Source: a virus | Lineage: Duplodnaviria > Caudoviricetes | DNA length: 44,161 nt | Direction: 5' to 3' (one strand) | Virus record (IMG/VR): IMGVR_UViG_3300037783_000006 | Span: 1-44,161 of that record | Shown here: one piece after another, positions 14,696-36,458 of the stretch | Layout: each line of letters starts with the position of its first letter | How positions within the stretch are numbered: the stretch's first letter is position 1 | Program-made: the position numbers and the translations under genes | Notes under the pieces: generated by a model | The model's database searches: none | Told to the model about the DNA's origin: nothing | What the model saw: the letters and a program-made list of their open reading frames with translations, nothing else

Positions 14696-14729
14696 TGCGC
14701 AAATATTTTCGTTACACTTAGCGATAGTT
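14696..14729 (-). repeat. 34-bp array-terminal (attI-like) motif, copy 1
   Basis: Exact reverse complement of 33298-33331: AACTATCGCTAAGTGTAACGAAAATATTTGCGCA. Confidence 0.95.
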
Positions 14730-14910
14730 ATAAAACAGTTTTAGGTTTGTACTTCTCTTTACCTGTTCCGTTACAAGCACCGCATTTTGGAGAACCGTTG
14801 TGGTCATAATAACCACTTCCATTACAAGCAGTACATGGTCGCTGTTTCCAACCTTTTACATATTTCTCAAAATGCTCTTTTCGTATCTGTTTTCGTTCTT
14901 TGAAGTCCAT
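14728..14910 (-). CDS. Cassette gene: small protein with two CxxCxGxG (DnaJ-type zinc finger) motifs
   Basis: CTACNGSG and CGACNGTG; stop overlaps the TAAC core. Confidence 0.8.
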   Translation of the reverse strand: MDFKERKQIRKEHFEKYVKGWKQRPCTACNGSGYYDHNGSPKCGACNGTGKEKYKPKTVL

Positions 14911-15070
14911 AAAAACCGTTTTATAACAAAGTCTATAAGCAATTGCCTATCAGCGTTTGTTGGTTAATTGAAAGTATTTACAAGGCAACTGCTCATAGCC
15001 TCAACCGTTGTATGCCATTAAAACGGTACGCTCGTACCTCGCCATACAACACAGTATAAACAAAATACAC

Positions 15071-15328
15071 TCACTCGCTCAGTGCTATAATCAAAGCCTG
15101 TCTAATATTTGAGTGCCATTGCTTTGCTTCAACAAAAAATGAAGTTGATACATCTTCGGCTTCATCGCCCATTACTACGCTTTGCATACCATCAAAAGCC
15201 ACCGCCCATCTTCCATCATCATCATTCAATAAATTAGGGCAATAGCCTATTTCACATAGTTCTTGAAGAGATTGCTCTACCGTCAACTCTTCATTTTTTG
15301 TTTTCGCTAAAATTTCTTCGTGTGTCAT
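15071..15328 (-). CDS. Cassette gene inside a site loop, hypothetical (start revised to ATG 15328)
   Basis: Same leader as the 31239 gene (AGTATAAACAAAGTAAA..CGAAC..GAT ATG). Confidence 0.7.
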   Translation of the reverse strand: MTHEEILAKTKNEELTVEQSLQELCEIGYCPNLLNDDDGRWAVAFDGMQSVVMGDEAEDVSTSFFVEAKQWHSNIRQALIIALSE

Positions 15329-15371
15329 ATCGTTCGTTTTACTTTGTTTATACTCCTTCGTTGGCAAACAT

Positions 15372-15629
15372 TCATGCCAACACTAACTCACCATCCAAGT
15401 ATTTTAAACAATGTCTAACTAATGGAGCAATTTGACACTCAACATTTAAGTCATGTCCAGTTTTTATGTTCGGCCACCCTTCCTTTTGCCGCTCCTTAAA
15501 GTATTCATCTATTTCTTGAAGTTTACCTTCAAAAAATTTCCTGTCATTTTCTTCACACAGTTGCTTAATAGTCGCTGCGTAGTTCGGATTCATTTGCCCT
15601 CGTTCGTTAAATTTTTTTTCTAAAGCCAT
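15372..15629 (-). CDS. Cassette body gene, hypothetical (start revised to ATG 15629)
   Basis: Lies wholly between GTTGGCAAAC and GTTTGCCAAC inverted repeats. Confidence 0.7.
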   Translation of the reverse strand: MALEKKFNERGQMNPNYAATIKQLCEENDRKFFEGKLQEIDEYFKERQKEGWPNIKTGHDLNVECQIAPLVRHCLKYLDGELVLA

Positions 15630-15740
15630 CACTATAACGTTTGCCAACAATAAATAAAATGAATAGCGCAGGTTGGCGTTCTGCTTCTATCCAATGTTTG
15701 TTCGTGCGCTACTGCATTTTATTAAAGCCGTTGGAGAACA

Positions 15741-16049
15741 TTATCTCTCCACTATTCTGTAATCATCCCAAATAGCAGATGCTATCAGTTTCAATTGCTC
15801 AAAGTCAACATCTTCAAATTGCATATTTTCTTGAAATCCAACAGCTTGTTGTTTCACGACTTCTTGAAATCCCTTTCTTGATAACGATTCTCCAACATCA
15901 GCTAAATCAACAGATTTAACTTGTTGTTCGTACTCATCAATCGCTATTCTCAGTTCCTCCATCAGTTGATAAATAGGTGTGTTTGGATATTCTCGCTGAA
16001 ATTTCTCAGCAAATCTCACTGCAATTTCATGTGATGTTAGTGTTTTCAT
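15741..16049 (-). CDS. Cassette gene crossing the GTT core (..QQVKSVDLADV*GES..)
   Basis: GTT at 15896-15894 is the in-frame Val52 codon. Confidence 0.75.
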   Translation of the reverse strand: MKTLTSHEIAVRFAEKFQREYPNTPIYQLMEELRIAIDEYEQQVKSVDLADVGESLSRKGFQEVVKQQAVGFQENMQFEDVDFEQLKLIASAIWDDYRIVER

Positions 16050-16094
16050 CTCGTAGTTATTTACCCGTTAAATCCGATTGTTTAGCTGTGTCCG

Positions 16095-16316
16095 TTATAA
16101 AGAATGCCTGTAATCTTTATATTTTTCTAATACTTCCCATAGTTCATAAACCTTTTCAGAACTTACTACCATACCTTCGTCATTTTTGCCAGTGTTGTGC
16201 CAGTGTTGTATGCAAGCCGCTTTATCAAATAATTCAATAAAAGCACTCTCTATAACAACAGGTATAGCACATTGCTTGTCTGCTTTTTTTCTAAATAATC
16301 TCTTAATCCAATTCAT
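16095..16316 (-). CDS. Cassette gene crossing the GTT core (..KQCAIPVV*IES..)
   Basis: GTT at 16256-16254 is the in-frame Val21 codon; stop overlaps TAAC. Confidence 0.75.
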   Translation of the reverse strand: MNWIKRLFRKKADKQCAIPVVIESAFIELFDKAACIQHWHNTGKNDEGMVVSSEKVYELWEVLEKYKDYRHSL

Positions 16317-16374
16317 ATTATTTTAATTTTAGTTAGTGGTGGCAACGTGCCATACCTACAACGTTGCATCAAAT

Positions 16375-24818: not shown

Positions 24819-25057
24819 TTGTAGTTTGCTCTTATTTCATCCTCTCGCTCCGACCTTGCCTTGACCGCTTCGATAACATCTTTATGAAGCTGTTTCCACG
24901 TTTTGTCCTGTTCATATATCTGTCGAAAGTTAGGCTGGTCAATTCGCTTAATACTCATTTGTTGACGTATCTCCGAAGGTATCTGCATGAACAGTTCATC
25001 AGATAGTTGCGCTTGTATCTCTATCTCGCGCAAGTTTTCAAATAGTTCCTTACTCAT
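24815..25057 (-). CDS. Hypothetical protein
   Basis: 80 aa; ATGA overlaps. Confidence 0.75.
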   Translation of the reverse strand: MSKELFENLREIEIQAQLSDELFMQIPSEIRQQMSIKRIDQPNFRQIYEQDKTWKQLHKDVIEAVKARSEREDEIRANYK

Positions 25058-25653
25058 CCTGTAATTTCTTGAAGCGATTGAATCTTTTCCTTCAAACTAG
25101 CCTCAACACTTTCGGAAATCTCGTAAACCTGTTTAGCCTTTTCAATTGTACCGTGTACTAACTCACCGTCCTTGTTTTTCTTTCCGTTGATAACCCAATC
25201 GACAATAGCCATAAACTGCTCAGAACCGTCTTCTATTTTAACTTTTGCTTTTTTCTTTGGTTCTGATTGCTTTCGATGCGTATTTGTAGCGTCAGCATCC
25301 TTAGTGTCATCAATCAGAAATAAGCCATTCAACGCGTACTTACGTGCGTAAGAAGATGAACTACCGAATGACTGTGCAATGTCCATTCCTTTGCGATTTG
25401 AGTCGATGCCAGCTTGTGCCTTTACAACTTGACACCCATCACTATCAGTTATCGTTGCAACCGCTTCCACAAACACCATTCCGCCAACTTCCTTAACTTC
25501 ATCCGTAATAGTTAAGGTGCAATCATGCTTTTTTAATAGTGGTTTGACCGCTTCGAGAATGTCTTCGCAGCTTCGGTACTTATACTTTCCAAAAGCATTG
25601 TATTGATTCTTTGGTGCTTTCAGTTCGTTTTGAATTTCTGTTAGTTTTTTCAT
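25054..25653 (-). CDS. erf: ERF-family single-strand annealing protein
   Basis: LKAPKNQYNAFGKYKYRSCEDILEAVKP and GSSSSYARKYALNGLF.IDD..DAD signature. Confidence 0.92.
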   Translation of the reverse strand: MKKLTEIQNELKAPKNQYNAFGKYKYRSCEDILEAVKPLLKKHDCTLTITDEVKEVGGMVFVEAVATITDSDGCQVVKAQAGIDSNRKGMDIAQSFGSSSSYARKYALNGLFLIDDTKDADATNTHRKQSEPKKKAKVKIEDGSEQFMAIVDWVINGKKNKDGELVHGTIEKAKQVYEISESVEASLKEKIQSLQEITG

Positions 25654-25654
25654 G

Positions 25655-25813
25655 TTAAATAGAATTTATGATTAGTTCTCGTTGCTCAATTATCAGTTTA
25701 ATGAATGTATTGTCATGCAATCCTGCGTTTTTAACGTAGTTCTTAGCCACATCTAACTGCAAATTTGTTTTACAGCTATTGATTACCTATACGCATCTCT
25801 CAAAGTGTTTCAT
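25655..25813 (-). pseudogene. 52-codon gene with an in-frame TAG at codon 9
   Basis: MKHFERCV*VINSCKTNLQLDVAKNYVKNAGLHDNTFIKLIIEQRELIINSI; ATGA overlap upstream, ends 1 nt before erf. Confidence 0.6.
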
Positions 25814-26055
25814 ACTTTAATACCTTTTGATTTAAGAAGCCTCACAGCCTCATCGTAAACCCTTGTTTTTCGTTCTATGTAAAACTCGCCAGTCTGCGTG
25901 CGGTAATTGCCTAACGTGTCTCTCACCGTTGATAGTGGAATGAAGTCAGGACTGCCCTCTTTTATTCCATCATTTATCTTTTCGTGAATTTTCTTCATCG
26001 CTCCCATAGGAAGCAACTCTTTAATTCGCTTAACTTTTTTTTCGGTGTATTTCAT
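25810..26055 (-). CDS. Small basic putative DNA-binding (Cro-like) regulator
   Basis: First gene of the leftward operon; 81 aa, basic, LSTVRDTL helix; inferred from position. Confidence 0.5.
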   Translation of the reverse strand: MKYTEKKVKRIKELLPMGAMKKIHEKINDGIKEGSPDFIPLSTVRDTLGNYRTQTGEFYIERKTRVYDEAVRLLKSKGIKV

Positions 26056-26092
26056 TGAGTTTATTTGGTTACGTTTAGAAAAAAGTCAGTCA

Positions 26093-26155
26093 CAAACATA
26101 AGCTATTTTTGTCGAAACAACAAAATAACAGCTATTTTTTTAATCATTATATTTG
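26093..26155. promoter_or_regulatory. Divergent promoter pair: TATGTTTG (minus, 26093-26100) and TATATTTG (plus, 26148-26155), with repeated AGCTATTTTT (26101, 26130)
   Basis: TAnnTTTG matches at the strand switch. Confidence 0.75.
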
Positions 26156-26159
26156 ACAA

Positions 26160-26741
26160 ATGAAACTAGAATCGCTACTGCCTTACCTTTTCGGGTTTAT
26201 TCTAGGCTTAATTGTGGCGTCACAAGGATGTGGAGAAGCTGAGACTATTACAAAAGTAGTCGAGAAACCAATTCCTAAAATAGAGTACGTTGACCGTTGG
26301 CGAACAGACACCGTTCGGTTTGTGTCTAAACAATTCGTTACCATTTACGATACAATCTACTCGGACAGAGTAGTTAGTCGTTTAGACACTTTGTTTATGG
26401 TTGATACGGTAAAGATTGTAGATACATGGTTAAGTGAGGTAGTGCGCTATGACACAACTGCACCAGTTTTGGGTGGTGTACTTAGGCTGAGGTGGCAAAA
26501 CTATCAGAACCTGACCGAAAACCTTCGCGTTGATTACACGCCTAGAAAAGTTCCGTTAACTTGGGTTTTAGGTGTTCACGGAAACGTTGGAATGTTGAGT
26601 GATTTTAACACACGGTACACACCTTTATTTGGAATTGGCGCACAGGTTACAGTGCGAAAGACTTACATTAGTGCAAATTACGGATTCAACGGTCAACATT
26701 ACGTAGGTGTTGGCGTTGGATATAACATTATAAGTAGATGA
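26160..26741 (+). CDS. Membrane-anchored protein with C-terminal amphipathic beta strands (spanin-like candidate)
   Basis: N-terminal TM segment ending near a Cys, DTV/DTI/DTL repeats, C-terminal YVGVGVGYNI. Confidence 0.5.
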   Translation: MKLESLLPYLFGFILGLIVASQGCGEAETITKVVEKPIPKIEYVDRWRTDTVRFVSKQFVTIYDTIYSDRVVSRLDTLFMVDTVKIVDTWLSEVVRYDTTAPVLGGVLRLRWQNYQNLTENLRVDYTPRKVPLTWVLGVHGNVGMLSDFNTRYTPLFGIGAQVTVRKTYISANYGFNGQHYVGVGVGYNIISR

Positions 26742-27556
26742 AACTTCGATTTCAACTTCCACCAGAAGGTTTTAAAAGATTGTTTTACGACATCGAAACA
26801 AGTCCGAACATTGGATTTTTTTGGTCATCCAGCTATAAGGCTAACATACCTCACGAAAACATTATAAAAGAGCGAGCAGTTATATGTATATGCTATAAGT
26901 GGGAAGGTCAGGACGAAGTACATAGCTTAGAGTGGGATAAGGGTTGCGATAAGGCAGCCCTTAAACGTTTTATGGAAGTTGCGCTAATGGCTGATGAGTT
27001 AGTAGCACACAACGGAGATAACTTTGATGAGAAATGGATTAGAACAAGGTGCGTTATTCATGGTATTGAATGCCCGTCAAAACTAAACTCATTCGATACA
27101 CTGAAGAAAGCGCGTTCACATTTTAGATTTAACTCGAATAGACTTGACTATTTAGGGCGGTTATTCTTTGGTGAGGGGAAAAGCCCCGTAGGTTTTCAAG
27201 ATTGGGTTGATATTACTTTGAACAACTGCGAAAAGGCAATGAATAAAATGGTTGAATACTGCAAAAAAGATGTTATTCTTTTGGAAGACGTGTTCCATAA
27301 AATTCAACCATACGTTAACCATAACACGCACGTCGGAGCGCACACGGGTTACGGTAGATTTAGTTGTCCTAGTTGCGGAAGCGATAACGTTACCCATCAG
27401 CGCAAAAGATACACCAAAACAGGTATGTTGAGGCATACGCTTAAATGCCACGAGAAATACTGCGGTAAACACTTTACGGTATCAAACAAAGTGTGGGAGG
27501 AAAAGATGAAGAATGACTGGATGAAATCTCAGAGCGAAACCAAAAACAGCCAATAA
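26738..27556 (+). CDS. DnaQ/RNase H-fold 3'-5' exonuclease with C-terminal zinc ribbon
   Basis: FYDIETS (ExoI), AHNGDNFD (ExoII), YCKKDV (ExoIII); CPSCGS...C....C. Confidence 0.88.
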   Translation: MKLRFQLPPEGFKRLFYDIETSPNIGFFWSSSYKANIPHENIIKERAVICICYKWEGQDEVHSLEWDKGCDKAALKRFMEVALMADELVAHNGDNFDEKWIRTRCVIHGIECPSKLNSFDTLKKARSHFRFNSNRLDYLGRLFFGEGKSPVGFQDWVDITLNNCEKAMNKMVEYCKKDVILLEDVFHKIQPYVNHNTHVGAHTGYGRFSCPSCGSDNVTHQRKRYTKTGMLRHTLKCHEKYCGKHFTVSNKVWEEKMKNDWMKSQSETKNSQ

Positions 27557-27601
27557 TCCATAGAATGATAAATCAAAATTATCTGCATAAAAACCTTTTT
27601 G

Positions 27602-27632
27602 TTTGTTTTTAAAACAAGAATTGCTAATTTTG
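27602..27632 (+). promoter_or_regulatory. Bacteroidota consensus promoter driving cassette array 2
   Basis: TTTG (27602-27605) - 19 bp - TAATTTTG (27625-27632), 2 bp before the first AAC core. Confidence 0.8.
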
Positions 27633-27909
27633 TAAACGGATTTGAATATGAGTAGTGCCGAGCGTAGGGGTGTCACCCTGCGGAGATGTAGTGAAGTAAA
27701 ACATCTGCGAAAGCATGTGACTGGAACATCTTTTGAGGCATTACTTATATCGTATTTGTATATGAAACGTGGCTGATAAGAACACGGAACTTGTCGAAGC
27801 GTAGTAAACTAAATTAAATGCCGCGCATGGTTAAATAAGCCGTACAACAGCCATGTTTTATATCGGTTACTGCTAAACAACGTAATTTTTAACGACTAAA
27901 TACAGAAAA

Positions 27910-28290
27910 ATGGAATTTACAGGACGATTGATTACAGGAGATTTTGAAGAAAACACAATGACATTTGAAATAGAAGGTGAAATGACACTACAAGCTGGCA
28001 GATACAGGATAGTGCAAATTGAAGCAGGAAACCCAGTTAAAAATAATGTTGATTTAGCTGATGTTGGTGGTAGTCAGGCTACGGGTTTGAAAGACAAGAT
28101 TAAGGATAAGATTGAGGTGGCAAAACATGATATTAAATTGTGTATGAGAGATTTTGACAACTTAGACGAACCTACTTCTGGGTATCCTGTTGGCGATGTT
28201 GGCATAAACATTTCAAAGAGCGAGGTATATCATAGGGGTAGATTACTTGGTCTGGAAGAGGCATTACGGTTTGCAATCGAATGTGAGTAG
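27910..28290 (+). CDS. Cassette gene crossing the GTT core (..VKNNVDLADV*GGS..)
   Basis: GTT 28063-28065 is in-frame Val52. Confidence 0.75.
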   Translation: MEFTGRLITGDFEENTMTFEIEGEMTLQAGRYRIVQIEAGNPVKNNVDLADVGGSQATGLKDKIKDKIEVAKHDIKLCMRDFDNLDEPTSGYPVGDVGINISKSEVYHRGRLLGLEEALRFAIECE

Positions 28291-28355
28291 CCTTATTACC
28301 ACCAACGGCTCTGGGTATGGAGTCGGGTTTTTACGGATTTGAAAACGAAAATATT

Positions 28356-28610
28356 ATGAAAACATATACAGAAGAACAAGTAATTGCAATACTAGACCAC
28401 ATTGAAAGAAAAGGGTTTAACGATGATTGCTTAACAATAAATGATGAACTTGATCATCTTAAAAGGATAGGCGTAGTAAAAAACTGCTCTATACCTGATG
28501 TTGTAAACCGAAGGGAACTGTTACTTGATTTTGCTGACTATTCAGAAAGCGATAAAACTTCTCAAACAACAGATGAGTGTGTAGATAACTATTTAGATTC
28601 AATCAAGTAA
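28356..28610 (+). CDS. Cassette gene crossing the GTT core (..VKNCSIPDV*VNR..); start revised from 28317
   Basis: A-rich leader before ATG 28356; GTT 28500-28502 in frame. Confidence 0.7.
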   Translation: MKTYTEEQVIAILDHIERKGFNDDCLTINDELDHLKRIGVVKNCSIPDVVNRRELLLDFADYSESDKTSQTTDECVDNYLDSIK

Positions 28611-28728
28611 TTGTTTACAACGGTTTTAATAAAATGCAGTAGCGCAAATGCTACACTTGAATAGAAGCAGAAAGCACCCATGCGCTATTCATTTTATTTA
28701 TTGTTGTGGTGCGTTAATTGTTAGAAAT

Positions 28729-28920
28729 ATGCTTTGGAAAAGTAAGTCAAATAAAGTAGCTGTCAAAGTGATTGATATGACTGGTAGTGATGGTAGTGGT
28801 TTAATGATTCGGCTGTTACCATGTGTTGATTTATGGTTTAACGAGGGTGTTGTAATTGGAATAAGTTGGCTTTCTTGGGGTTTTGAATTTTGGTTCACAG
28901 ACGTGAGAGACCTTGTTTAA
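28729..28920 (+). CDS. Cassette body gene, small Trp-rich protein (start revised from 28648)
   Basis: ATG 28729 lies inside body 28703-28931; stop lies in the right inverted repeat. Confidence 0.6.
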   Translation: MLWKSKSNKVAVKVIDMTGSDGSGLMIRLLPCVDLWFNEGVVIGISWLSWGFEFWFTDVRDLV

Positions 28921-28957
28921 TGCACCACAACGGACATGAATAAACACAGTAGCGATT

Positions 28958-29293
28958 ATGAAAGAAGAAATTGAAAGAATACTCAGAAGCCGATTTACAC
29001 GGGGCGACATCCAAACAGCCACAAACGAGCTATTGGATTTATTTAATGTTAGCCTTTCGTTGACAGATTCAAAGGAAGAATACGAGCCTTATTTTGGTTG
29101 GTGTGATGTTGATGGATGCGAAAATGAAGGGGCAAATGGTGGCGGATGCTGGCGAGAAACTGGATATTGGACAGTATGTAGTAAGCATTCTTCAAAATAT
29201 AGAGCGGGTGAGCCGCAGCCACCAATGAAGCAAAAGGCAATAGACAGGGAGAAAAGGCGAGGTGCTGACGGTGTGTTAGTCAATGAAGGCTAA
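28958..29293 (+). CDS. Cassette gene crossing the GTT core (..ELLDLFNV*SLS..), Cys/His zinc-binding-like C-terminus
   Basis: GTT 29048-29050 in frame; CDVDGC..CSKH; stop overlaps TAAC. Confidence 0.75.
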   Translation: MKEEIERILRSRFTRGDIQTATNELLDLFNVSLSLTDSKEEYEPYFGWCDVDGCENEGANGGGCWRETGYWTVCSKHSSKYRAGEPQPPMKQKAIDREKRRGADGVLVNEG

Positions 29294-29478
29294 CGGTTTG
29301 GCTATGCACCGTATGAAGCATAGCGTAATATGGGGTATAGCGTTTAGTATATGATTTCGGTGGCGATTGATTGCAGGACTTTTCGCATACTGACTAACTA
29401 ACAAGACTGCACAGTGGTTGAAATCAAGCTCTGTAACGCCACTGAATTATATACATTGTTATAGGGCGTTTTTTGATT

Positions 29479-29688
29479 ATGATTGAGGCAAAACCAAATA
29501 CAAGATTAAGAAGTGAGATATTAAGCGCATTATTTCATAAAGGATATGCAGGCCCAAATTATAACCTTGATGATGTTTCGGCTTATGTTACAAAGCACGA
29601 TAGTAGTTTGAGTTTATCATTTTGGGATATGAGTTGTACTATAAATAAAAAAGACAAAGGTTATACGGATATTTTAAATGCCCTATAA
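29479..29688 (+). CDS. Cassette body gene, hypothetical
   Basis: Within body 29458-29689; stop overlaps TAAC. Confidence 0.65.
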   Translation: MIEAKPNTRLRSEILSALFHKGYAGPNYNLDDVSAYVTKHDSSLSLSFWDMSCTINKKDKGYTDILNAL

Positions 29689-29917
29689 CGGTTTGGCTAT
29701 GATTAAGCGAAGCGACCCGATAGGGTTAATTATAGCCGTTGTTAGCTGACTGTATGAGCGATTAATACCCACTAACCTACATTTGAAACACTACCGTAGT
29801 ATTTATTTTTTTTGTGCGGTAGCAAAATAATTTTGGAAAAATTAAAATTTTTTACCTTAAAATTAGGATTGTATTATATTTATCCGCATATTTGGGTATA
29901 AATTAATAATTACTGAT

Positions 29918-30238
29918 ATGGAAACTATTACATTATACCACGCCACAAACACACCGATAGAAGAAATAGGAATTGAAAAACAAACTATGTTTTTTACAGG
30001 TGATTATGATTTGGCTAAAAATTGGGGTGATGAACACTATGAAGATTATGATATTTTAGAAGTTGAAATACCTATTGAAGATATTTACGAATATGTGCCT
30101 GAGAGACCTGCATTTGCTATTACTGATTTTGAGCAATTAGAAGTTAAACCTGAGCTTATTACTGGTAAGTGTGTTCATTTTGAAGATTGTAGCGATGGTT
30201 ATATAGTTAAGAATATTAATGATTATGAATTAAGATAA
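29918..30238 (+). CDS. Hypothetical protein, possible ADP-ribosyltransferase-like fold
   Basis: LYHAT...FFT.D...A..WG pattern resembles H-type ART folds; inference only. Confidence 0.4.
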   Translation: METITLYHATNTPIEEIGIEKQTMFFTGDYDLAKNWGDEHYEDYDILEVEIPIEDIYEYVPERPAFAITDFEQLEVKPELITGKCVHFEDCSDGYIVKNINDYELR

Positions 30239-30954
30239 TGGGATTAAAAAACAAATATGTAGTTCACTCGATTGATAATTTTGTTGCAATTGAGTGGATT
30301 ACAAAAAAACATTATGCTAAACGTACACCTATAATGAAATATACGTTTGGTTTATTTGATTCTGATAAAAATATGCACGGGGTTTGTGTTTTTTCTCCTG
30401 CTCCATCTCGATTCTGGAACAATGGAGGTAAATTGTTTAACGAAAAACATAATATAGATGTTTATGAATTAAGCAGGTTGATAATGAATGATGGACACGA
30501 AAAAAATCTAACATCATTTTTTGTAAGTAGATGTTTGAAATTGATTCCAAAACCAAATGTTGTGGTAAGTTATGCCGATAAAAACCAACACCATAGCGGA
30601 TATATTTACCAAGCGACTAATTTTATTTATACTGGTGAAGCTGAACCAAAAAACAAAAGCTTTGATTTTGTAATATTTGGAAAAAAATACCACGGTAGAA
30701 ATATGAATATTGAATTTACAAGAAAACTACTCGGAAATCAATATAACGAAAACATACATTGGAAGGAAAATATAATAGCTGTTGGAGGTGAAATAATACC
30801 ACAATTACCAAAACACCGATATGTTTTTATAAATGCTAAAAACAAACAACAATTAATATCAGATATGATTTATGATTCTGTTGAATATCCTAAACAGAAA
30901 AATAAACGATATGATGCAAGTTTTGAACCAATACAACAAAAAACATTATTCTAA
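30238..30954 (+). CDS. mom: Mom-family adenine-modification enzyme (GNAT-like)
   Basis: KKHY, FGLF..GVCVF, YELSRL, SYAD..QHHSGYIYQATNFIYTG and KHRY motifs. Confidence 0.85.
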   Translation: MGLKNKYVVHSIDNFVAIEWITKKHYAKRTPIMKYTFGLFDSDKNMHGVCVFSPAPSRFWNNGGKLFNEKHNIDVYELSRLIMNDGHEKNLTSFFVSRCLKLIPKPNVVVSYADKNQHHSGYIYQATNFIYTGEAEPKNKSFDFVIFGKKYHGRNMNIEFTRKLLGNQYNENIHWKENIIAVGGEIIPQLPKHRYVFINAKNKQQLISDMIYDSVEYPKQKNKRYDASFEPIQQKTLF

Positions 30955-31145
30955 TGATTGACTGGCTAATAAAAAACAAGAAATTTATAAAAATAAGGGC
31001 AATAGAACAAGAATTGGGAATGCCTGATAGCACATTAACTAAACACGTTAATGGAAGTCAAAAAATGGCTGAGAAGTGGGAGAGACCTCTAAATAATTTT
31101 CTTAATGGTTTTGTTAAAAACCAAGGAGGGGGAGAAAAAAAATAA
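30954..31145 (+). CDS. Small HTH DNA-binding protein
   Basis: IRAIEQELGMPDSTLTKHVNG helix-turn-helix. Confidence 0.7.
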   Translation: MIDWLIKNKKFIKIRAIEQELGMPDSTLTKHVNGSQKMAEKWERPLNNFLNGFVKNQGGGEKK

Positions 31146-31238
31146 ATACGGGCTTATAGCACTGAACTTGATTAGTTGCACGGACTCAGCCCATATTGCA
31201 GCTAACGGTAAAGTATAAACAAAGTAAAGCGAACGGAT

Positions 31239-31442
31239 ATGGATGAAATATACGAACTATACGAACACTGCACAACCGAGAACACGATAATGTGTAACAA
31301 GTGTAGAACCATTGGAAGGGAAATGGATTGTGACCCTTATGATGCTGCAACCACTTGGAGTAAAAAAGGGTGGAGAATTACAAGGCATCAAACAATATAC
31401 TGCCCTAAATGTGCAGAAGGTAAATTGAAACCGAAAAAGTAG
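31239..31442 (+). CDS. Cassette gene inside a site loop; zinc-ribbon-like
   Basis: CNKC...GW......YCPKC. Confidence 0.75.
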   Translation: MDEIYELYEHCTTENTIMCNKCRTIGREMDCDPYDAATTWSKKGWRITRHQTIYCPKCAEGKLKPKK

Positions 31443-31556
31443 TGAGCGTATTTTGTTTATACATTGTTGTAAAATCGTTTTAATGTTTTACAACGGTTTG
31501 GCTATGTGTAGTGCCGACCTTGATAAGTTACTACACTAACTTAAAAGACTAAAACA

Positions 31557-31772
31557 ATGAGTAAAGAACAAAACGAACAACAAGAAAATAAGGCATTACA
31601 TATAGCTGGTGTTAGTGGTAGTTATTCTCCTACACTAACCGAAGTGCAAAAAATGTATGACTATTTAAAGATGTATTTTCACAGAAGCCAGATGAATGGA
31701 TTGGTGGACATAGATACACATGAACGTGGTGAAATTAAGAAGATGCTAAGGCTTCCAGATAATTACCGCTAA
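31557..31772 (+). CDS. Cassette gene crossing the GTT core (..NKALHIAGV*SGS..)
   Basis: GTT 31611-31613 in frame; stop overlaps TAAC. Confidence 0.75.
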   Translation: MSKEQNEQQENKALHIAGVSGSYSPTLTEVQKMYDYLKMYFHRSQMNGLVDIDTHERGEIKKMLRLPDNYR

Positions 31773-31826
31773 CGGTACGGCTAAAACACGGATTTTAACG
31801 GGTAGATACCCACAAACAGAAAGACA

Positions 31827-32156
31827 ATGGAAGAAGAAATTGAACGCAGAATAAATTGGATTAACGCAAGAGTTGATGTAAGCCCATCAATTAAAGATTA
31901 CATAGCTTTTCAGATGCTTGATTTTGCCAAATATTACCACGAACAACAAGTTAAAAACTGTGATTTAGCTGATGTTGGTGGTAACGAAGTGGCGTTGCCT
32001 GATTGCAGTTGCTTGAAATGTAAACCAAATGAATTTCCAAACCTAAGATTTAATGTTTGCCCGAAATGCGGCAACAAAAGATGTCCGCACGCATCCGACC
32101 ATAATTATGAGTGTACAAATTCAAATGATGTTGGGCAAACTGGAAGCGTTTATTAA
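31827..32156 (+). CDS. Cassette gene crossing the GTT core (..QQVKNCDLADV*GGN..), Cys-rich C-terminal domain
   Basis: GTT 31974-31976 in frame; CSCLKC..CPKCGNKRCPHA.DH..ECT.SN. Confidence 0.78.
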   Translation: MEEEIERRINWINARVDVSPSIKDYIAFQMLDFAKYYHEQQVKNCDLADVGGNEVALPDCSCLKCKPNEFPNLRFNVCPKCGNKRCPHASDHNYECTNSNDVGQTGSVY

Positions 32157-32321
32157 GCAATGACCACCAGCGGCTACGGCTATGAAATCGTAGCGGATTA
32201 GAAGCACAGACCTATCGAATAGAAATGATTTTAATTAATAACCATAGTACCCGAATAAGCACGAACACCGCTATGTTTTATAGCCATTGTTGTGCGTATG
32301 TGGCGGTAAATTGAAACGAAA

Positions 32322-32522
32322 ATGAGTTTATTATACAAGACAAAGGAAGAGCAAACAACAACTTGCGAAATAAAGCAGGAGGATGGTAAAATAGTTTTAG
32401 ACTTCTATTCTGATTCTGGAAAGTTTGGAACTGATGAAATGCTTGATGGCTATAAATTAACTCCTGAAAGATTGTTGCAGATTTTACAGGATAGGGATGA
32501 TTATTCCGAAGATGAATTGTAG
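32322..32522 (+). CDS. Cassette body gene, hypothetical
   Basis: Within body 32289-32536. Confidence 0.7.
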   Translation: MSLLYKTKEEQTTTCEIKQEDGKIVLDFYSDSGKFGTDEMLDGYKLTPERLLQILQDRDDYSEDEL

Positions 32523-32618
32523 CCATTACGCACAACGGTTTGGGTATGGTGTCGGCTGACGAAGGAAGCTGCACTATGCGCAGTGTTAGCATTAGTACGG
32601 ATTTAAAACATAAATACA

Positions 32619-32807
32619 ATGAAAAAAGAGATAGTAATTACCATAGCTTTAGAGCCTACCAGATGGCAAAGGTTTTTAGATAAAACTGGATTAAAGCGAT
32701 TCACTTATGATGAAATGATGATAGCTGTAGAAGACGGACAGCATTTCTACGATAGACCGAATAGCAAGATTAGAATGATTAGAGTTCAAGAAAACCGATT
32801 GAGTTAG
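32619..32807 (+). CDS. Cassette body gene, hypothetical
   Basis: Within body 32585-32820. Confidence 0.7.
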   Translation: MKKEIVITIALEPTRWQRFLDKTGLKRFTYDEMMIAVEDGQHFYDRPNSKIRMIRVQENRLS

Positions 32808-32918
32808 TATTAATGCTAACGGTTTGGCTAAGAAACGTGGCCAGTAAGAACGTTTAAAATTAACCCACGGCAGAGGCAAAGCCATGTTTACTTAGCCCTT
32901 GTTGTAAACTGAAAAATT

Positions 32919-33062
32919 ATGAGAGATTTATTTGATGCTATTTCGTTGATAATGGGAATAGTTACAATGATTGCAATGGTGGTAGCTGTTTTTCTTGGAG
33001 ACAAAGAATCAGCTACACTATTTGGCGTGATTGCTTTGATATTGAGACCAAGCGATAAGTAA
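32919..33062 (+). CDS. Cassette body gene, 47-aa two-TM membrane protein (not in the ORF track)
   Basis: MRDLFDAISLIMGIVTMIAMVVAVFLGDKESATLFGVIALILRPSDK fills body 32901-33078. Confidence 0.7.
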   Translation: MRDLFDAISLIMGIVTMIAMVVAVFLGDKESATLFGVIALILRPSDK

Positions 33063-33297
33063 TTTTATTGTTTACAACGGTAAAGTATATAAGTAGTGCG
33101 GTTCATACAGGCTTCGGACACGGTTGCAAACGTATAAATAAGAGCCGATTAGATTGTTTGGAACATAACGACCGTATTACTTATATACATTGTTGTAAAA
33201 TCGTAGGGGTATGACCACAAATAAACAAAGGCGGATTGGTTTTCCAACTTCGGCAAATGTCGGAGGTCTGAGTTCGATTCTCGCCCCTATGTTTTAC

Positions 33298-33331
33298 AAC
33301 TATCGCTAAGTGTAACGAAAATATTTGCGCA
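33298..33331 (+). repeat. 34-bp array-terminal (attI-like) motif, copy 2
   Basis: Exact inverted copy of 14696-14729. Confidence 0.95.
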
Positions 33332-33612
33332 TGATTAAACTGCCTGATAAAGAAGGTGTTATACTTGAATTTACGTCTGAGTTTGACGCAGAAAGAAGTA
33401 AATACATTCCTATACGTGTGCAAAATTTTACGCAGCAGGAAATTGCAGATTGGCTTGGTAAATCACTAAGGACAATTCAGCACTTTGAAAAACCAGACGC
33501 TTCAGGAAAGTTTAGGAACTACGACCCGTACATTTTAACTGGTTACAGGGTCATGGTAGAACTTATAAATCCTGATATTCTGATTTGGCATCAAATGAAG
33601 GACAAGACTTAG
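33331..33612 (+). CDS. XRE-type HTH protein
   Basis: TQQEIADWLGKSLRTIQHFEK; ATG abuts the terminal motif; 3' end overlaps the endolysin by 50 bp. Confidence 0.75.
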   Translation: MIKLPDKEGVILEFTSEFDAERSKYIPIRVQNFTQQEIADWLGKSLRTIQHFEKPDASGKFRNYDPYILTGYRVMVELINPDILIWHQMKDKT

Positions 33613-33973
33613 ATGAAACGTCTTTATGACCTATTATTTTTGCTTGTGGATAGCGTTCTTTTAAATCTTCGAGTAAACACCTAAGCGTTTCCTTTTGAGC
33701 CTCTGTACGGGTGTCTTTTGGCTTCATGTCAGCATCAACACCGCCAACGTAGCAAACGCCTATTGAGTTACGATTGTAACCTTTAGCGTGTGCGCCTGAC
33801 TTACTTTCGTGTCTACCTTTTTCAAGTGTTCCGTTTAGAGTAATAATCCAATGATAACCAATGTCTGAAAAACCTCGTTCGTCAACGTGCCACCTTCTTA
33901 TTTCATCAACTGACACGTCTCTACCTTCGGGAGTGGCTGAACAATGAACTATTATTTTGTTGATGTTTCTCAT
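33563..33973 (-). CDS. Endolysin, N-acetylmuramoyl-L-alanine amidase (T7 lysozyme-like)
   Basis: IIVHCSAT, GFSDIGYH, GAHAKGYN..SIGVCYVGG and GHKD..K.CPSF. Confidence 0.95.
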   Translation of the reverse strand: MRNINKIIVHCSATPEGRDVSVDEIRRWHVDERGFSDIGYHWIITLNGTLEKGRHESKSGAHAKGYNRNSIGVCYVGGVDADMKPKDTRTEAQKETLRCLLEDLKERYPQAKIIGHKDVSSKSCPSFDAKSEYQDL

Positions 33974-34025
33974 TTACTATCGCATTGTCCTGTTCTTAAA
34001 CATCTTTCACTGCACTCTACTGGTT

Positions 34026-34373
34026 TTATTTTGCACCAAGATTGCACACCTTTCTGTCTAGTTCGTCTATCTTCTGCTCTAGTCTTTTCTTGCTTTCCTC
34101 GCATTCTTCGTGATTCTTTTTCAGCACTTCCATTTCTTTCTTCATGATTTCCCAATCATTTTTGAGATAATCAGCGGCATCCTTGTAAATGACAATAGCC
34201 TTTTCGATGTTGTCAAGTTCGGTTGACTTTTGATTTTTCTTGCCTTGACGGTACGCTCCCAAAGCACCAATAACACCAATAGCTGATGTTATAAATGCGT
34301 CAACGTGTTGCCCGATATTTCCTAGTTCCATATTACTCTGCATTTTCTTTAACTTCCAATTCCTCAAATTCAA
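34026..34373 (-). CDS. Putative holin/lysis membrane protein (one TM plus coiled coil); start probably 34343 or 34331
   Basis: AFITSAIGVIGALGAY followed by basic residues; directly upstream of the endolysin. Confidence 0.55.
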   Translation of the reverse strand: MNLRNWKLKKMQSNMELGNIGQHVDAFITSAIGVIGALGAYRQGKKNQKSTELDNIEKAIVIYKDAADYLKNDWEIMKKEMEVLKKNHEECEESKKRLEQKIDELDRKVCNLGAK

Positions 34374-34407
34374 TTCCCCTTTCTGTCAAATGTTGTTATT
34401 TGAATTA

Positions 34408-34605
34408 TTATTCTGCCCTAATATGAAATTTTTCAGGCATTTTATCTAAACCAATGTCATCTCTGTCATTGATTAAAATGCAAACCTCATCACCTTCAAC
34501 TATTTGACCATACCAATATTCAACTCTTTCAGAACAGTTTCTTTTGACGGATTCTTCTCTATTGAACTGTAACCCTTCATCTAATGGTAAAACAAGGTAT
34601 CTCAT
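34408..34605 (-). CDS. Hypothetical protein
   Basis: 65 aa, coupled to the upstream gene. Confidence 0.7.
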   Translation of the reverse strand: MRYLVLPLDEGLQFNREESVKRNCSERVEYWYGQIVEGDEVCILINDRDDIGLDKMPEKFHIRAE

Positions 34606-36458
34606 TTGTGTTTGTTTATAATAGCTTTGATGGCTTCTTTGTTTGAGCCACTTTGAAATACGTAAACGCCTTGAAGGTCGGCTTTAACATTGTAAGTGGT
34701 CGGAATACCTCTATATCCAAGTATAAAAAACCCATTCCAGCTACTTGTGTTTAAATCTGATAACAATAGAACTTGCTGTGTTTCATTTATTGTTAGCGCA
34801 AAAGTTCCATATCTCGTATTGTCGCTAATATTAACTATATCAGATGTCAAAGAAGGTGATCCAGCGTTGTTTGTAACTGCCGCATTATTATTTGGCTGTA
34901 TCAGAAATGCGTAGCCACTGGAATCTACATTAGATGTGTGCATACCATTATCTGTGTAATAACCTTTTATTAAAAAGTAAACGTCTAAACCTGAGTATCC
35001 ATCAAGATTAGGCGAAGATAACGTGTCATCAACTCCATCAAAATTAAATACTACCTTACCATTTACGGTATTTATAACACCTGCTGTACCTAATTTTGGT
35101 TGATAAGAAGCGTTTGCAATTGTAAAATGATTTGAATTTCCTGACTTATCGTAAAAATACCCGAAAAAATCAGTGCCAGAAACAAACGAACCTAGCGTAG
35201 TTCCCGATGCATTTTCACTCAACATACTTAATTCACCATTTGCATCTGGGAAAAAGTCATCATCTGCATTGTCACTTGACCTACGCACGTAAGCAATAGC
35301 ACCAGAAAAACCATCTACATCATTTAAAACGCTGCATATAGATAGAGGTGTTCCATAATCACTAAAATCTTCTGAAACGTTGATAGTTGTTCCATCCTCA
35401 TCATACGCGACTGTTGTTCCATCTGTGGAAGCTACATACACCACAATAGAACCAACAGCATCAACCGTCCAAATGTATGTGTTAGATGCTTGTATTATTT
35501 TTTCATAACTACCATCGTTTTTTGGTATCCAAAAAGTGTGAGATGTTGGTGTTATTCCAGTTGTTGTTATTGTGATGGTAACGGAATCTCCAAACAAAGG
35601 AGATGTATTGCTAAATGAAACTGATAATGATGCGGACGCTGGGCAACTTGGAATTACGAACTCTGTACCATTCCAACTTCCAACGGGTGAGCCGTCTTGT
35701 GTCACGGCAAACGATTCAGCGCCTCCACTCGCAATAGTGCCAACTTCAGTACCGTTAAGTTCTACGGTGGCGTCCGCGCAAGGCGAACAGATTTCAGATT
35801 CTAAACACGCTATTTGCTGCGCTGTTAATCGCTCAATGTTCTCTTTTAAACAGAAGTCAATAGCTTGAAGTATATCACTCGAAACACCATCACACTCACC
35901 TGCTATACATTCGTTTTTAATTGTAACGACAACATCAACATCCATTGATGCAAAGATGAAGTCCATACGTGGCTGATATTGCCCAGTTTCGGCTGTTTCT
36001 TCATCCCAAACATCTTTTGGGTTAAAGTTGTAGTTACTTGTGTTTATTTCAATTCTATCGGCTTTCAGAGTTGCTACTAAATCCTTAGCGTCCGATTCTA
36101 ATTGCTTTGCAATCGAAGTTCTAACTCTATCAAATGAATAAGCATCATCTTGACTTAATTTTGATTTACGTACAGCATAAACCAACTTCAAAGGAAAGGT
36201 GACGTTCACACGCGGTTTAGGTGTGTATTTTTGGTCTATCCTTTCAATGTTAGGCTCTCCAATCAATCGGAAATAACTAACACCATCAAACGCATCAAAG
36301 TCTATCTTGTCGTAGTTTCCTTGACCTAAATATTCAGCAGGATAAACTTCACCTTTATCCGTAGTTACAAGCGTTGAAAGGCAATGTCGTTTCTCAAAAT
36401 AATTGAGTAAAGACAATTCAAGGTTAAGGAATTGGATTATACTTTCAAGCATTTGCAA
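34602..36458 (-). CDS. Multidomain virion protein (connector/tail-completion-like N-terminus, Ig-like linker, lectin-like C-terminus)
   Basis: 618 aa; C-terminal VRRSSDNA..YDKSGNSNH..QP...FDGVDD pattern typical of LamG/ConA-like phage appendages; inference. Confidence 0.55.
   Translation of the reverse strand: MQMLESIIQFLNLELSLLNYFEKRHCLSTLVTTDKGEVYPAEYLGQGNYDKIDFDAFDGVSYFRLIGEPNIERIDQKYTPKPRVNVTFPLKLVYAVRKSKLSQDDAYSFDRVRTSIAKQLESDAKDLVATLKADRIEINTSNYNFNPKDVWDEETAETGQYQPRMDFIFASMDVDVVVTIKNECIAGECDGVSSDILQAIDFCLKENIERLTAQQIACLESEICSPCADATVELNGTEVGTIASGGAESFAVTQDGSPVGSWNGTEFVIPSCPASASLSVSFSNTSPLFGDSVTITITTTGITPTSHTFWIPKNDGSYEKIIQASNTYIWTVDAVGSIVVYVASTDGTTVAYDEDGTTINVSEDFSDYGTPLSICSVLNDVDGFSGAIAYVRRSSDNADDDFFPDANGELSMLSENASGTTLGSFVSGTDFFGYFYDKSGNSNHFTIANASYQPKLGTAGVINTVNGKVVFNFDGVDDTLSSPNLDGYSGLDVYFLIKGYYTDNGMHTSNVDSSGYAFLIQPNNNAAVTNNAGSPSLTSDIVNISDNTRYGTFALTINETQQVLLLSDLNTSSWNGFFILGYRGIPTTYNVKADLQGVYVFQSGSNKEAIKAIINKHK

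What the first reader, a model, noticed from the sequence alone, without database searches (positions are those of the whole stretch)
27635..33331. Phage-borne, recombinase-less integron-like cassette array with a non-canonical site grammar
Seen: 5.7 kb of small unrelated genes strung on a strict repeating grammar. It runs AAC - 5-6 nt spacer (GGTTT, GGTAA, GGCTC, GGTAC...) - left arm (GGCTAT/GGCTAA/AGTAT..) - loop of ~10-220 nt - complementary right arm - ~3 nt spacer - GTT - body - AAC. Each body has its own terminal inverted repeat, e.g. GTTGGTGGTAGTCAGGCTAC (28063) / GTAGCCTTATTACCACCAAC (28306), 18 of 20 complementary, and GTTGTGGTGCGTTAA / TTAATGCACCACAAC. I count 16 sites and 13 bodies (29 bp to 1.47 kb), with a consensus Bacteroidota promoter 2 bp upstream. 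Established: AAC/GTT cores, cassette ends that pair with each other and stop codons overlapping TAAC are hallmarks of integron attC cassettes, recombined as folded ssDNA by IntI tyrosine recombinases. Differences from canonical attC: asymmetric spacers, outer stems of 9-20 bp, very large gene-bearing loops and no recombinase in the genome. Inference: a gene capture and shuffling platform for phage accessory genes, driven in trans by a host or helper enzyme. I cannot check from here whether this has already been described.
Basis: partly seen in the sequence, partly recalled or inferred. Interest (0 to 1): 0.93.

Follow-up and report, generated by a model that had tools for sequence, protein, structure and literature searches.

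The report
Reversed integron-like cassette arrays in phage
This complete phage genome carries two rows of small genes in hairpin-bounded cassettes, of a kind that related phages gain, lose and reorder at one exact three-base point; it has no recombinase of its own, so it likely borrows an integron-like enzyme from its Bacteroidota host, one that lacks the helix thought essential for this reaction.

Summary
In detail: 16 stems and 13 bodies at 27635-33331, plus a second 5-unit array (16365-14696, minus strand). Both arrays end in the same 34 bases. The complete phage has no tyrosine recombinase.

One correction: the mobile unit runs from AAC to AAC (stem plus the following body), so genes lie on the attC bottom strand, reversed against chromosomal cassettes (86 of 89 viral units versus 24 of 146 chromosomal). 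The 34-base end looks like attI.

Unrelated phages share units at 97-100% identity in different order (11 of 13 ends at AAC). Cultured lytic phages without a recombinase (P12002L/S, mumin) show the same swaps.

The sites flank an IntI-related recombinase lacking the I2 insertion, in phages (33 of 61 loci) and in 112 of 151 genomes of one Bacteroidota family. Action in trans is inferred, not shown.

Phage CALINs are published, and one site of this family was called attC and failed with IntI1 (PMC9892861). My paper searches found no description of the system. This scan noted the family before on other DNA.

The parts
27602..27632 (+). Bacteroidota-type promoter match at the far end of array A
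   Evidence: exact match; 4 found vs 2.3 expected in the window; consensus recalled
27637..27750 (+). Unit 1: body-less stem with three inner hairpins
   Evidence: 82% alike over 142 nt to a mid-array unit of L062/L065
27751..27863 (+). Unit 2: body-less stem; joins unit 3 at TATAT|C
   Evidence: two homologues in run X6 align only up to 27863
27864..28305 (+). Unit 3: stem + 244-bp body; 126-aa ORF starts in the loop and crosses GTT (28063) as Val
28306..28620 (+). Unit 4: stem + 122-bp body; ORF starts in the loop, crosses GTT (28500) as Val
28621..28930 (+). Unit 5: stem + 229-bp body with its own small ORF
   Evidence: run X3 has loose ends at 28628 and 28936, beside both AAC cores
28931..29293 (+). 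Unit 6: stem + 247-bp body; 111-aa ORF crosses GTT (29048) as Val
29294..29340 (+). Unit 7: third body-less stem; joins unit 8 at TATAG|C
29341..29688 (+). Unit 8: stem + 232-bp body, 69-aa ORF
29689..31205 (+). Unit 9: stem + 1466-bp low-GC body with three ORFs, including a Mom-family DNA-modification protein (30238-30954)
   Evidence: PF25680 E 9.5e-34; phrog_1384; GC 0.29 at 30001-31000
31206..31493 (+). Unit 10: 67-aa gene wholly inside the loop, then a 29-bp empty body
31494..31772 (+). Unit 11: stem encoding an 18-aa leader fused at GTT (31611) to a 163-bp body; related stems carry other bodies in L053, L055 and runs X1, X4, X5
31773..32170 (+). Unit 12: stem + 198-bp body (core reads AGC); 109-aa Cys-rich ORF crosses GTT (31974) as Val
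32171..32535 (+). Unit 13: stem + 248-bp body, 66-aa ORF
32536..32819 (+). Unit 14: stem + 236-bp body, 62-aa ORF
32820..33077 (+). Unit 15: stem + 178-bp body, 47-aa hydrophobic ORF
33078..33299 (+). Unit 16: stem + 109-bp probably non-coding body, next to the docking site
33298..33331 (+). attI-like docking site A: AAC, 6 nt, TAAG, no partner arm; identical to site B over 34 nt
   Evidence: same form beside recombinase genes; related motif in L050, L218/L421, L431
33331..33612 (+). Small XRE-type HTH gene, placed where recombinase-bearing phages have the recombinase
   Evidence: 2 of 12 hits named XRE regulator by a source
14728..16363 (-). Array B: five stem+body units with the same grammar and gene direction
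14696..14729 (-). attI-like docking site B

Best explanation
The phage holds two arrays of swappable cassettes that are likely cut out and inserted as folded single-stranded DNA by an integron-like tyrosine recombinase that it does not encode, most likely the host's chromosomal enzyme. Each cassette runs from one AAC core to the next (spacer, hairpin, GTT, body). On excision the two ends of the body pair, giving a long stem. New cassettes would enter at the fixed 34-base attI-like site at the downstream end, and the whole row would be read towards that site from the far end. The partner enzyme is related to IntI but lacks the I2 insertion, and the sites lack the bulged bases that I2 reads; the 5-6 versus 3 spacer asymmetry may do that job instead (inferred). 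Many genes start in the hairpin loop and cross GTT as Val, so re-pairing of stems and bodies would fuse new protein halves. SHOWN here: the grammar, unit boundaries, gain/loss/reordering, gene direction, linkage of sites to the recombinase family, and absence of the enzyme in cis. INFERRED: single-strand mechanism, which enzyme acts, direction of insertion, host phylum.
For: Unit boundary: of 105 pairs of alike stems (>=80%) in different viral contexts, 7 keep the downstream body, 0 keep the upstream body, 98 differ on both sides. G006 and G007 align outside the array mostly at about 68-73% (two short hits at 81% and 100%) but share array blocks at 97-100%, in different order; 11 of 13 block ends lie at the AAC core. 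Cultured isolates: mumin6-3 and 6-4 lack a 506-bp unit of mumin6-1, TAAC to TAAC, holding a whole loop-plus-body gene. P12002L and P12002S differ by swaps with 5 of 7 array block ends within 2 nt of AAC, one exactly at the terminus. None of these four records has PF00589. Structure: the two ends of one body pair at 68-93% of positions 1-6 (137 viral bodies) against 26-70% across one array site (227 sites); arms use all four Watson-Crick pairs; G-T pairs sit on the AAC strand. All 13 circularised units fold better on that strand than on the other, and better than in array form. Enzyme: the most recurrent protein family in 119 chromosomal loci is a tyrosine recombinase (7 ORFs in 7 loci, two of them overlapping). 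In 61 viral loci with a relative at >=34% identity, 33 have sites upstream on the same strand (116 sites) versus 1, 1 and 0 loci in the other three positions. In chromosomes, 16 of 20 loci with enough flank have a site within 1.5 kb downstream and 0 of 26 upstream; XerC/D-like controls 0 of 4. The enzyme is found in 112 of 151 genomes of G001's family. Its best solved relative is VchIntIA, whose residues 200-242 align to 3 residues here. IntI1 failed on P12002L_attC1, a site of this grammar.
Against: No recombination was observed for this phage itself: contigs of six runs show no excision joint or circle (contigs drop rare forms). No close relative of this phage with a rearranged array was found. 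Several junctions share 4-7 nt, so microhomology or exchange between co-infecting phages can explain single cases. The window's docking site has a 6-nt spacer, while most chromosomal ones shown have 7. Phage-borne recombinases form their own group in a quick tree, so a helper phage is a real alternative donor. Two of 13 and two of 7 block ends are not at AAC. In chromosomes 12 of 438 stem pairs keep the upstream side (many pairs come from one genome). Loci include near-duplicates. The detector misses some sites (4 of 16 here, all in the mumin array). An I2-less enzyme acting on folded DNA runs against the published model (PMC7790495, passages).
Confidence: 0.72

Rival explanations
1. Same site-specific mechanism, but the enzyme comes from a co-infecting or resident helper phage that carries the short (about 265 aa) phage-type recombinase.
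For: Recombinase-bearing phages have exactly this window's layout: genes, docking site, recombinase on one strand. They form their own group (SH-aLRT 98, quick tree, 13 rows). An HTH gene sits in the recombinase's place here.
Against: The host-type enzyme is in 112 of 151 genomes sampled, so it needs no co-infection. A DNA search with a phage-type recombinase gene found no match among cultured phages.
Confidence: 0.14
2. Units move by homologous or microhomology recombination, using the phage's Erf-like annealing protein and RusA-like resolvase; the stems are regulatory RNA structures, as for T4 PeSL repeats.
For: Erf-like and RusA-like genes are present. Stems hold translation starts. Some junctions share up to 7 nt.
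Against: Shared sequence at most G006/G007 junctions is 3-5 nt. Pairing between the two far ends of a body makes sense only in an excised circle. Sites track one recombinase family on one side only. In chromosomes the same stems sit on the non-coding strand.
Confidence: 0.07
3. The arrays are frozen relics from an ancestor that had the recombinase and no longer move in this phage.
For: Three body-less stems and one AGC core suggest decay; no rearranged form of this phage was seen.
Against: Two identical docking sites; intact terminal repeats on 13 of 13 bodies; recombinase-less phages (G006, 98% complete; P12002L/S; mumin) show recent swaps.
Confidence: 0.07

Closest known systems
Integrons (IntI, attI, attC; VchIntIA, PDB 2A3V)
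   Same: AAC/GTT cores, folded hairpin sites, cassette ends that pair in the circle, exchange within AAC, a fixed simple site about 50 bp from the recombinase gene in relatives, and an enzyme whose best solved match is VchIntIA (E 1.4e-36).
   Different: Enzyme lacks the I2 insertion and scores below the TIGR02249 cut-off. No conserved bulge in the inner box; spacers 5-6 and 3 nt. Loops up to about 260 nt that hold genes or gene starts. In phages, genes lie on the bottom strand and point towards attI.
Phage-borne CALINs, Qi et al. 2023 (PMC9892861), above all Polaribacter phage P12002L
   Same: attC-like clusters without integrase in lytic phages. Their P12002L_attC1 has this grammar, and P12002L has two arrays with identical ends like this window.
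   Different: The paper called two sites in P12002L and treated them as ordinary attC; my detector finds 11 stems in its two arrays (one of them mis-paired at the attC1 site). attC1 was the one site of six that IntI1 did not integrate. Their attC2 is the array terminus read backwards. The parts I read do not mention the cognate enzyme, reversed genes or shuffling between isolates.
PeSL repeats of T4-like phages (PMC2839356, PMC4122927; search listing and abstract starts only)
   Same: Repeated stem-loop elements that bound variable small genes in lytic phages and mark insertion and deletion points.
   Different: PeSLs are promoter-terminator repeats; the homologous-recombination mechanism is recalled. 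Here only one promoter match was found in array A, cores are AAC/GTT, and sites track a tyrosine recombinase.
Xer/dif-type sites
   Same: The docking site reads as two arms around a 6-7 bp centre; the enzyme also matches the XerA model.
   Different: Cassette sites exist only when folded. The enzymes group apart from XerC/D-like rows, and those rows had no sites nearby (0 of 4).

Membership tests
Integron (IntI type) | Integrase with the IntI-specific I2 insertion | tested here: not met
   None in the phage. The partner enzyme tested aligns 3 residues against 43 of VchIntIA; three full-length partners score 178-204 bits on TIGR02249, cut-off 265.
Integron (IntI type) | attC outer boxes (AAC / GTT) with cassette ends that pair in the circle | tested here: met
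   13 of 13 bodies; covariation in 137 viral and 110 chromosomal bodies.
Integron (IntI type) | Inner boxes with extrahelical bases and near-equal spacers (canonical values recalled) | tested here: not met
   Ungapped pairing of 82-100% from position -2 to +6 in 227 viral and 242 chromosomal sites; 5' side longer by 2-3 nt. The detector demands 4 of those pairs, so this is partly built in.
Integron (IntI type) | Crossover at G|TT (AA|C on the other strand) | tested here: met
   Bounded to within AAC by one G006/G007 block that starts at the first A and ends at the C; the exact bond cannot be read from sequence.
Integron (IntI type) | attI site beside the integrase gene | tested here: inconclusive
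   Met in relatives. In the window the same form of site ends both arrays but no integrase follows.
Integron (IntI type) | Cassette genes on the top strand, read from a promoter at attI | tested here: not met
   86 of 89 viral units have the longest ORF on the bottom strand; 122 of 146 chromosomal units have it on the top strand. The promoter match is at the far end.
Integron (IntI type) | Recombination of the folded bottom strand, resolved by replication | not testable with these tools
   Strand bias in folding fits; needs a recombination assay.
CALIN (attC cluster lacking integrase) | Two or more attC-like sites with no integrase nearby | tested here: met
   21 stems, no PF00589 in a complete genome.
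CALIN (attC cluster lacking integrase) | Detection by the standard attC covariance model (IntegronFinder) | not testable with these tools
   The model is not held; Rfam gave 0 matches at E<=1 over 25000-36000. Qi et al. found P12002L_attC1 with HattCI.
PeSL-type regulatory repeats | Each repeat holds a promoter and terminator | tested here: not met
   One Bacteroidota-type promoter match in array A; terminator-like sites 4 vs 3.2 expected.

The most novel reading that the evidence does not exclude
Bacteroidota run a second integron lineage in which a recombinase without the I2 helix recombines bulge-free folded DNA sites. Lytic phages with no recombinase hijack the host enzyme, share one cassette pool across unrelated phages, and build new small proteins by joining loop-encoded front halves to body-encoded back halves at a fixed valine codon.
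Probability: 0.5. Interest if true: 0.92.

Novelty: new variant of a known kind. Interest (0 to 1): 0.82.

Why it matters
The I2 helix is taken as the step that let integrases work on folded single strands, and it is what IntegronFinder uses to call an integron. A common I2-less system would change that account and would mean most Bacteroidota integrons are missed. For phage biology it gives a defined route by which unrelated lytic phages swap accessory genes, such as the Mom-family gene here and the methyltransferases in P12002L and mumin arrays. Nilsson et al. (PMC7077304, passages) tie one muminvirus methyltransferase to plating efficiency. Cultured phage-host pairs already exist, so the main claims can be tested directly.

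Tried and rejected
Canonical unit (GTT to GTT): rejected, 0 of 105 viral stem pairs keep the upstream body and the mumin loss removes stem plus downstream body.

Relatives through the neighbouring exonuclease gene: 44 loci, only one short array match. Exact search for the window's terminus in viral contigs: 0. Relatives through the terminase: 3 loci, all with sites but no shared units. Cultured phages by DNA similarity to array A: only 44-59 nt hits.

Rfam and ARAGORN: nothing. Pfam and PHROGs name only the Mom protein and one weak repressor-like hit among array A genes.

A scan for body-less junctions in other loci was too noisy and gave no clean case outside the window, so the mirror-cut reading rests on three junctions here.

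In-frame crossing as a mere effect of stop codons in the arms: not enough; 73 of 89 crossings are in frame against 45% expected from open arms, p 7e-13, with related units counted separately.

The careful tree did not finish; the quick tree holds 57 rows and only 13 phage enzymes. No RNA holder listed. No excision joint in contigs of six runs; most listed joints trace to array B or to related stems. No covariance model, structure prediction or complex prediction was run.
Full report
OBSERVATION. The window is a complete 44,161-bp phage with direct terminal repeats. Between 27635 and 33300 lie 16 hairpin stems and 13 bodies of 29-1466 bp, each body with its own terminal inverted repeat. A detector built on this grammar finds 12 of the 16 stems and none in 100 resampled sequences. 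A second array of five units lies on the minus strand at 16363-14728. Both arrays end in the same 34 bases. There is no tyrosine recombinase by PF00589, by PHROGs on 67 ORFs or by a profile of the partner enzyme. Sequencing contigs confirm the assembly.

WHAT MOVES. Pairing alone cannot tell whether a unit runs GTT to GTT or AAC to AAC, so I tested it on relatives. Among 269 distinct site contexts in 81 viral locus strands, 105 pairs share a stem at 80% or more: 7 also share the downstream body, none the upstream body, and 98 neither. Records G006 and G007 align outside the array mostly at about 68-73%, yet share array blocks at 97-100%. The blocks come in different order, and 11 of 13 block ends (one contig end left out) fall at AAC. 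One block starts at the first A and ends at the C, which bounds the exchange to those three bases. The other two ends lie just after a GTT position and inside a loop. So cassettes pass between unrelated phages.

Cultured lytic phages show the same. Flavobacterium phages mumin6-3 and 6-4 lack a 506-bp unit present in mumin6-1, from TAAC to TAAC, holding a gene that starts in the loop and ends in the body. Polaribacter phages P12002L and P12002S share backbone blocks but differ in cassettes; 5 of 7 array block ends are within 2 nt of AAC and the other 2 within about 12 nt downstream. P12002L has two arrays with identical ends, as this window does. None of these four records has PF00589. For this phage itself I saw no rearranged form. 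Run X3 has loose ends beside both cores of unit 5, which fits that unit sitting in another context, but I cannot show both ends are on one molecule.

STRAND AND DIRECTION. G-T pairs at two arm positions lie on the AAC strand (57% and 63% of 227 viral sites), and the two ends of one body pair far better than the two sides of one array site. All 13 circularised units fold better on the AAC strand. That strand therefore corresponds to the attC bottom strand (attC convention recalled). In viruses the longest ORF is on that strand in 86 of 89 units with an ORF; in chromosomal loci it is on the other strand in 122 of 146 (units without a called body or ORF were left out: 21 viral, 85 chromosomal). 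The phage arrays are thus reversed integron arrays.

THE ENZYME. An exact site motif found 119 loci in prokaryote genomes; the 80 listed are mostly Bacteroidota and allied phyla. The most recurrent protein family there is a tyrosine recombinase. Its best solved match is VchIntIA, but 43 residues of VchIntIA face 3 residues here, and it stays under the integron-integrase cut-off. Linkage is one-sided. In viral contigs 33 of 61 loci with a relative at 34% identity or more have sites upstream on the same strand, against 1, 1 and 0 elsewhere; many of the 28 others have little upstream DNA, and some loci are near-duplicates. In chromosomes 16 of 20 loci have a site within 1.5 kb downstream on the opposite strand, and 0 of 26 upstream (27 of 29 loci could be scored). 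XerC/D-like controls had none (0 of 4). The enzyme occurs in 112 of 151 genomes of G001's family (Flavobacteriaceae by my recall of the genus). Phage and chromosomal enzymes group apart from each other and from XerC/D-like rows in a quick tree of 57 rows.

DOCKING SITE. Next to the recombinase, the last body ends in AAC, 6-7 nt and a TA(T/A)(A/G) box with no GTT partner: about 50 bp before the gene in phages and 40-136 bp past its stop in chromosomes. The window's 34-base end has this form. A related motif, with a start codon 33-34 nt after AAC, ends arrays in L050, L218/L421 and L431; in the first two, as here, the gene is a small HTH protein. In P12002L and S different cassettes abut the same terminus. 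I read it as attI, with newest cassettes at the downstream end (inferred).

PROTEIN HALVES. Of 263 viral units, 89 have an ORF that starts in the loop and crosses GTT; 73 do so with GTT as Val, against 45% expected from which frames are open in the arms. Five array A genes do this. The same stem occurs with different bodies: a 217-nt loop at 99% identity in L047 and L062, and unit 11's stem at 81-88% in L053 and L055, each with a different in-frame back half. Cassettes normally move whole, but halves are re-paired at GTT over time; how is unknown. Three body-less stems in array A all join the next unit one base after the right arm's (C/T)(A/T)TA box, the mirror of the AA|C cut. This fits occasional cutting at the inner box, but I found no clean case elsewhere.

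WHAT IS IN PRINT. Qi et al. 2023 (PMC9892861; I read parts 2-4 of 7 and supplement part 1 of 2) report 17 phage CALINs. Their P12002L_attC1 has this grammar and was the one site of six that IntI1 did not integrate; their attC2 is the array terminus read backwards. Neron et al. 2022 (passages) define IntI by the extra domain and name one complete Bacteroidetes integron. Escudero et al. 2020 (PMC7790495; passages) state that I2 docks the extrahelical bases. Ghaly et al. 2021 (passages) list Bacteroidota among integron hosts without detail. Nilsson et al. 2020 (passages) has no occurrence of 'cassette'. PeSL papers: listing and abstract starts only. Searches found no description of an I2-less Bacteroidota system or of reversed phage arrays. 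The library lacks most subscription papers; bioRxiv supplements and Qi's Dryad annotation file were not visible and could list more such sites.

EARLIER SCAN NOTES. The scan has noted this family many times on other DNA (704 findings hold the search words), including the Xer-like enzyme, genes in loops and protein-half shuffling. Several were marked 'part of it fell'. I had the recombinase link, gene reversal and in-frame crossing before reading them, and tested each here.

VERDICT. Real, and it works like an integron, but fails three defining tests for IntI integrons (I2, bulged inner boxes, gene direction). New variant of a known kind. Action in trans by the host enzyme is the best reading and is untested. 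Interest 0.82.

Noticed in passing
window 33192-33300: Body of unit 16 looks non-coding: a closing stem and a T-arm-like hairpin, but no ARAGORN or Rfam match and a folding z-score of only -0.75. L053 and L074 share another non-coding body with a similar closing stem (z -4.2). Possibly small-RNA cassettes.
   Followed up: partly
window 27660-27738: Loop of unit 1 folds into three hairpins (z -2.7) and is 82% alike to a unit in L062/L065; possible structured RNA.
   Followed up: partly
window 33331-33612: XRE-type HTH gene right after the docking site; a like gene follows related sites in L050 and L218/L421. It may regulate the array or bind the site.
   Followed up: partly
L080, L110, L149 (one Bacteroidales genome): Very long chromosomal array in which an apparently empty cassette is repeated between gene-bearing ones; a recombinase gene closes it at L080:13955-15106.
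   Followed up: no
L078, L088, L097, L127, L154: Genome-bin contigs whose arrays have the phage-type gene direction; probably prophages or mis-binned phages. L097 (Cyclobacteriaceae bin) shares unit 11's stem at 87%, a possible host hint.
   Followed up: no
L135:2502-3206 and L091:4652-5287: Related short recombinases next to what looks like an IS91-type transposase (recognised from memory), without the array layout.
   Followed up: no
L436:1397-5500 (mumin6-1): Muminvirus array of DNA-methyltransferase cassettes with a variant arm grammar that my detector misses; it lies next to an exonuclease gene of the same Pfam family as the one before array A.
   Followed up: partly
outer stems of all bodies: Position 8 of the body-end stem almost never forms a Watson-Crick pair (9% viral, 1% chromosomal), so it is a conserved irregularity that the enzyme may read.
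   Followed up: no
plasmid hits H36, H37, H39: Partial relatives of the recombinase at 46-54% identity on Acinetobacter and Klebsiella plasmids; context not examined.
   Followed up: no
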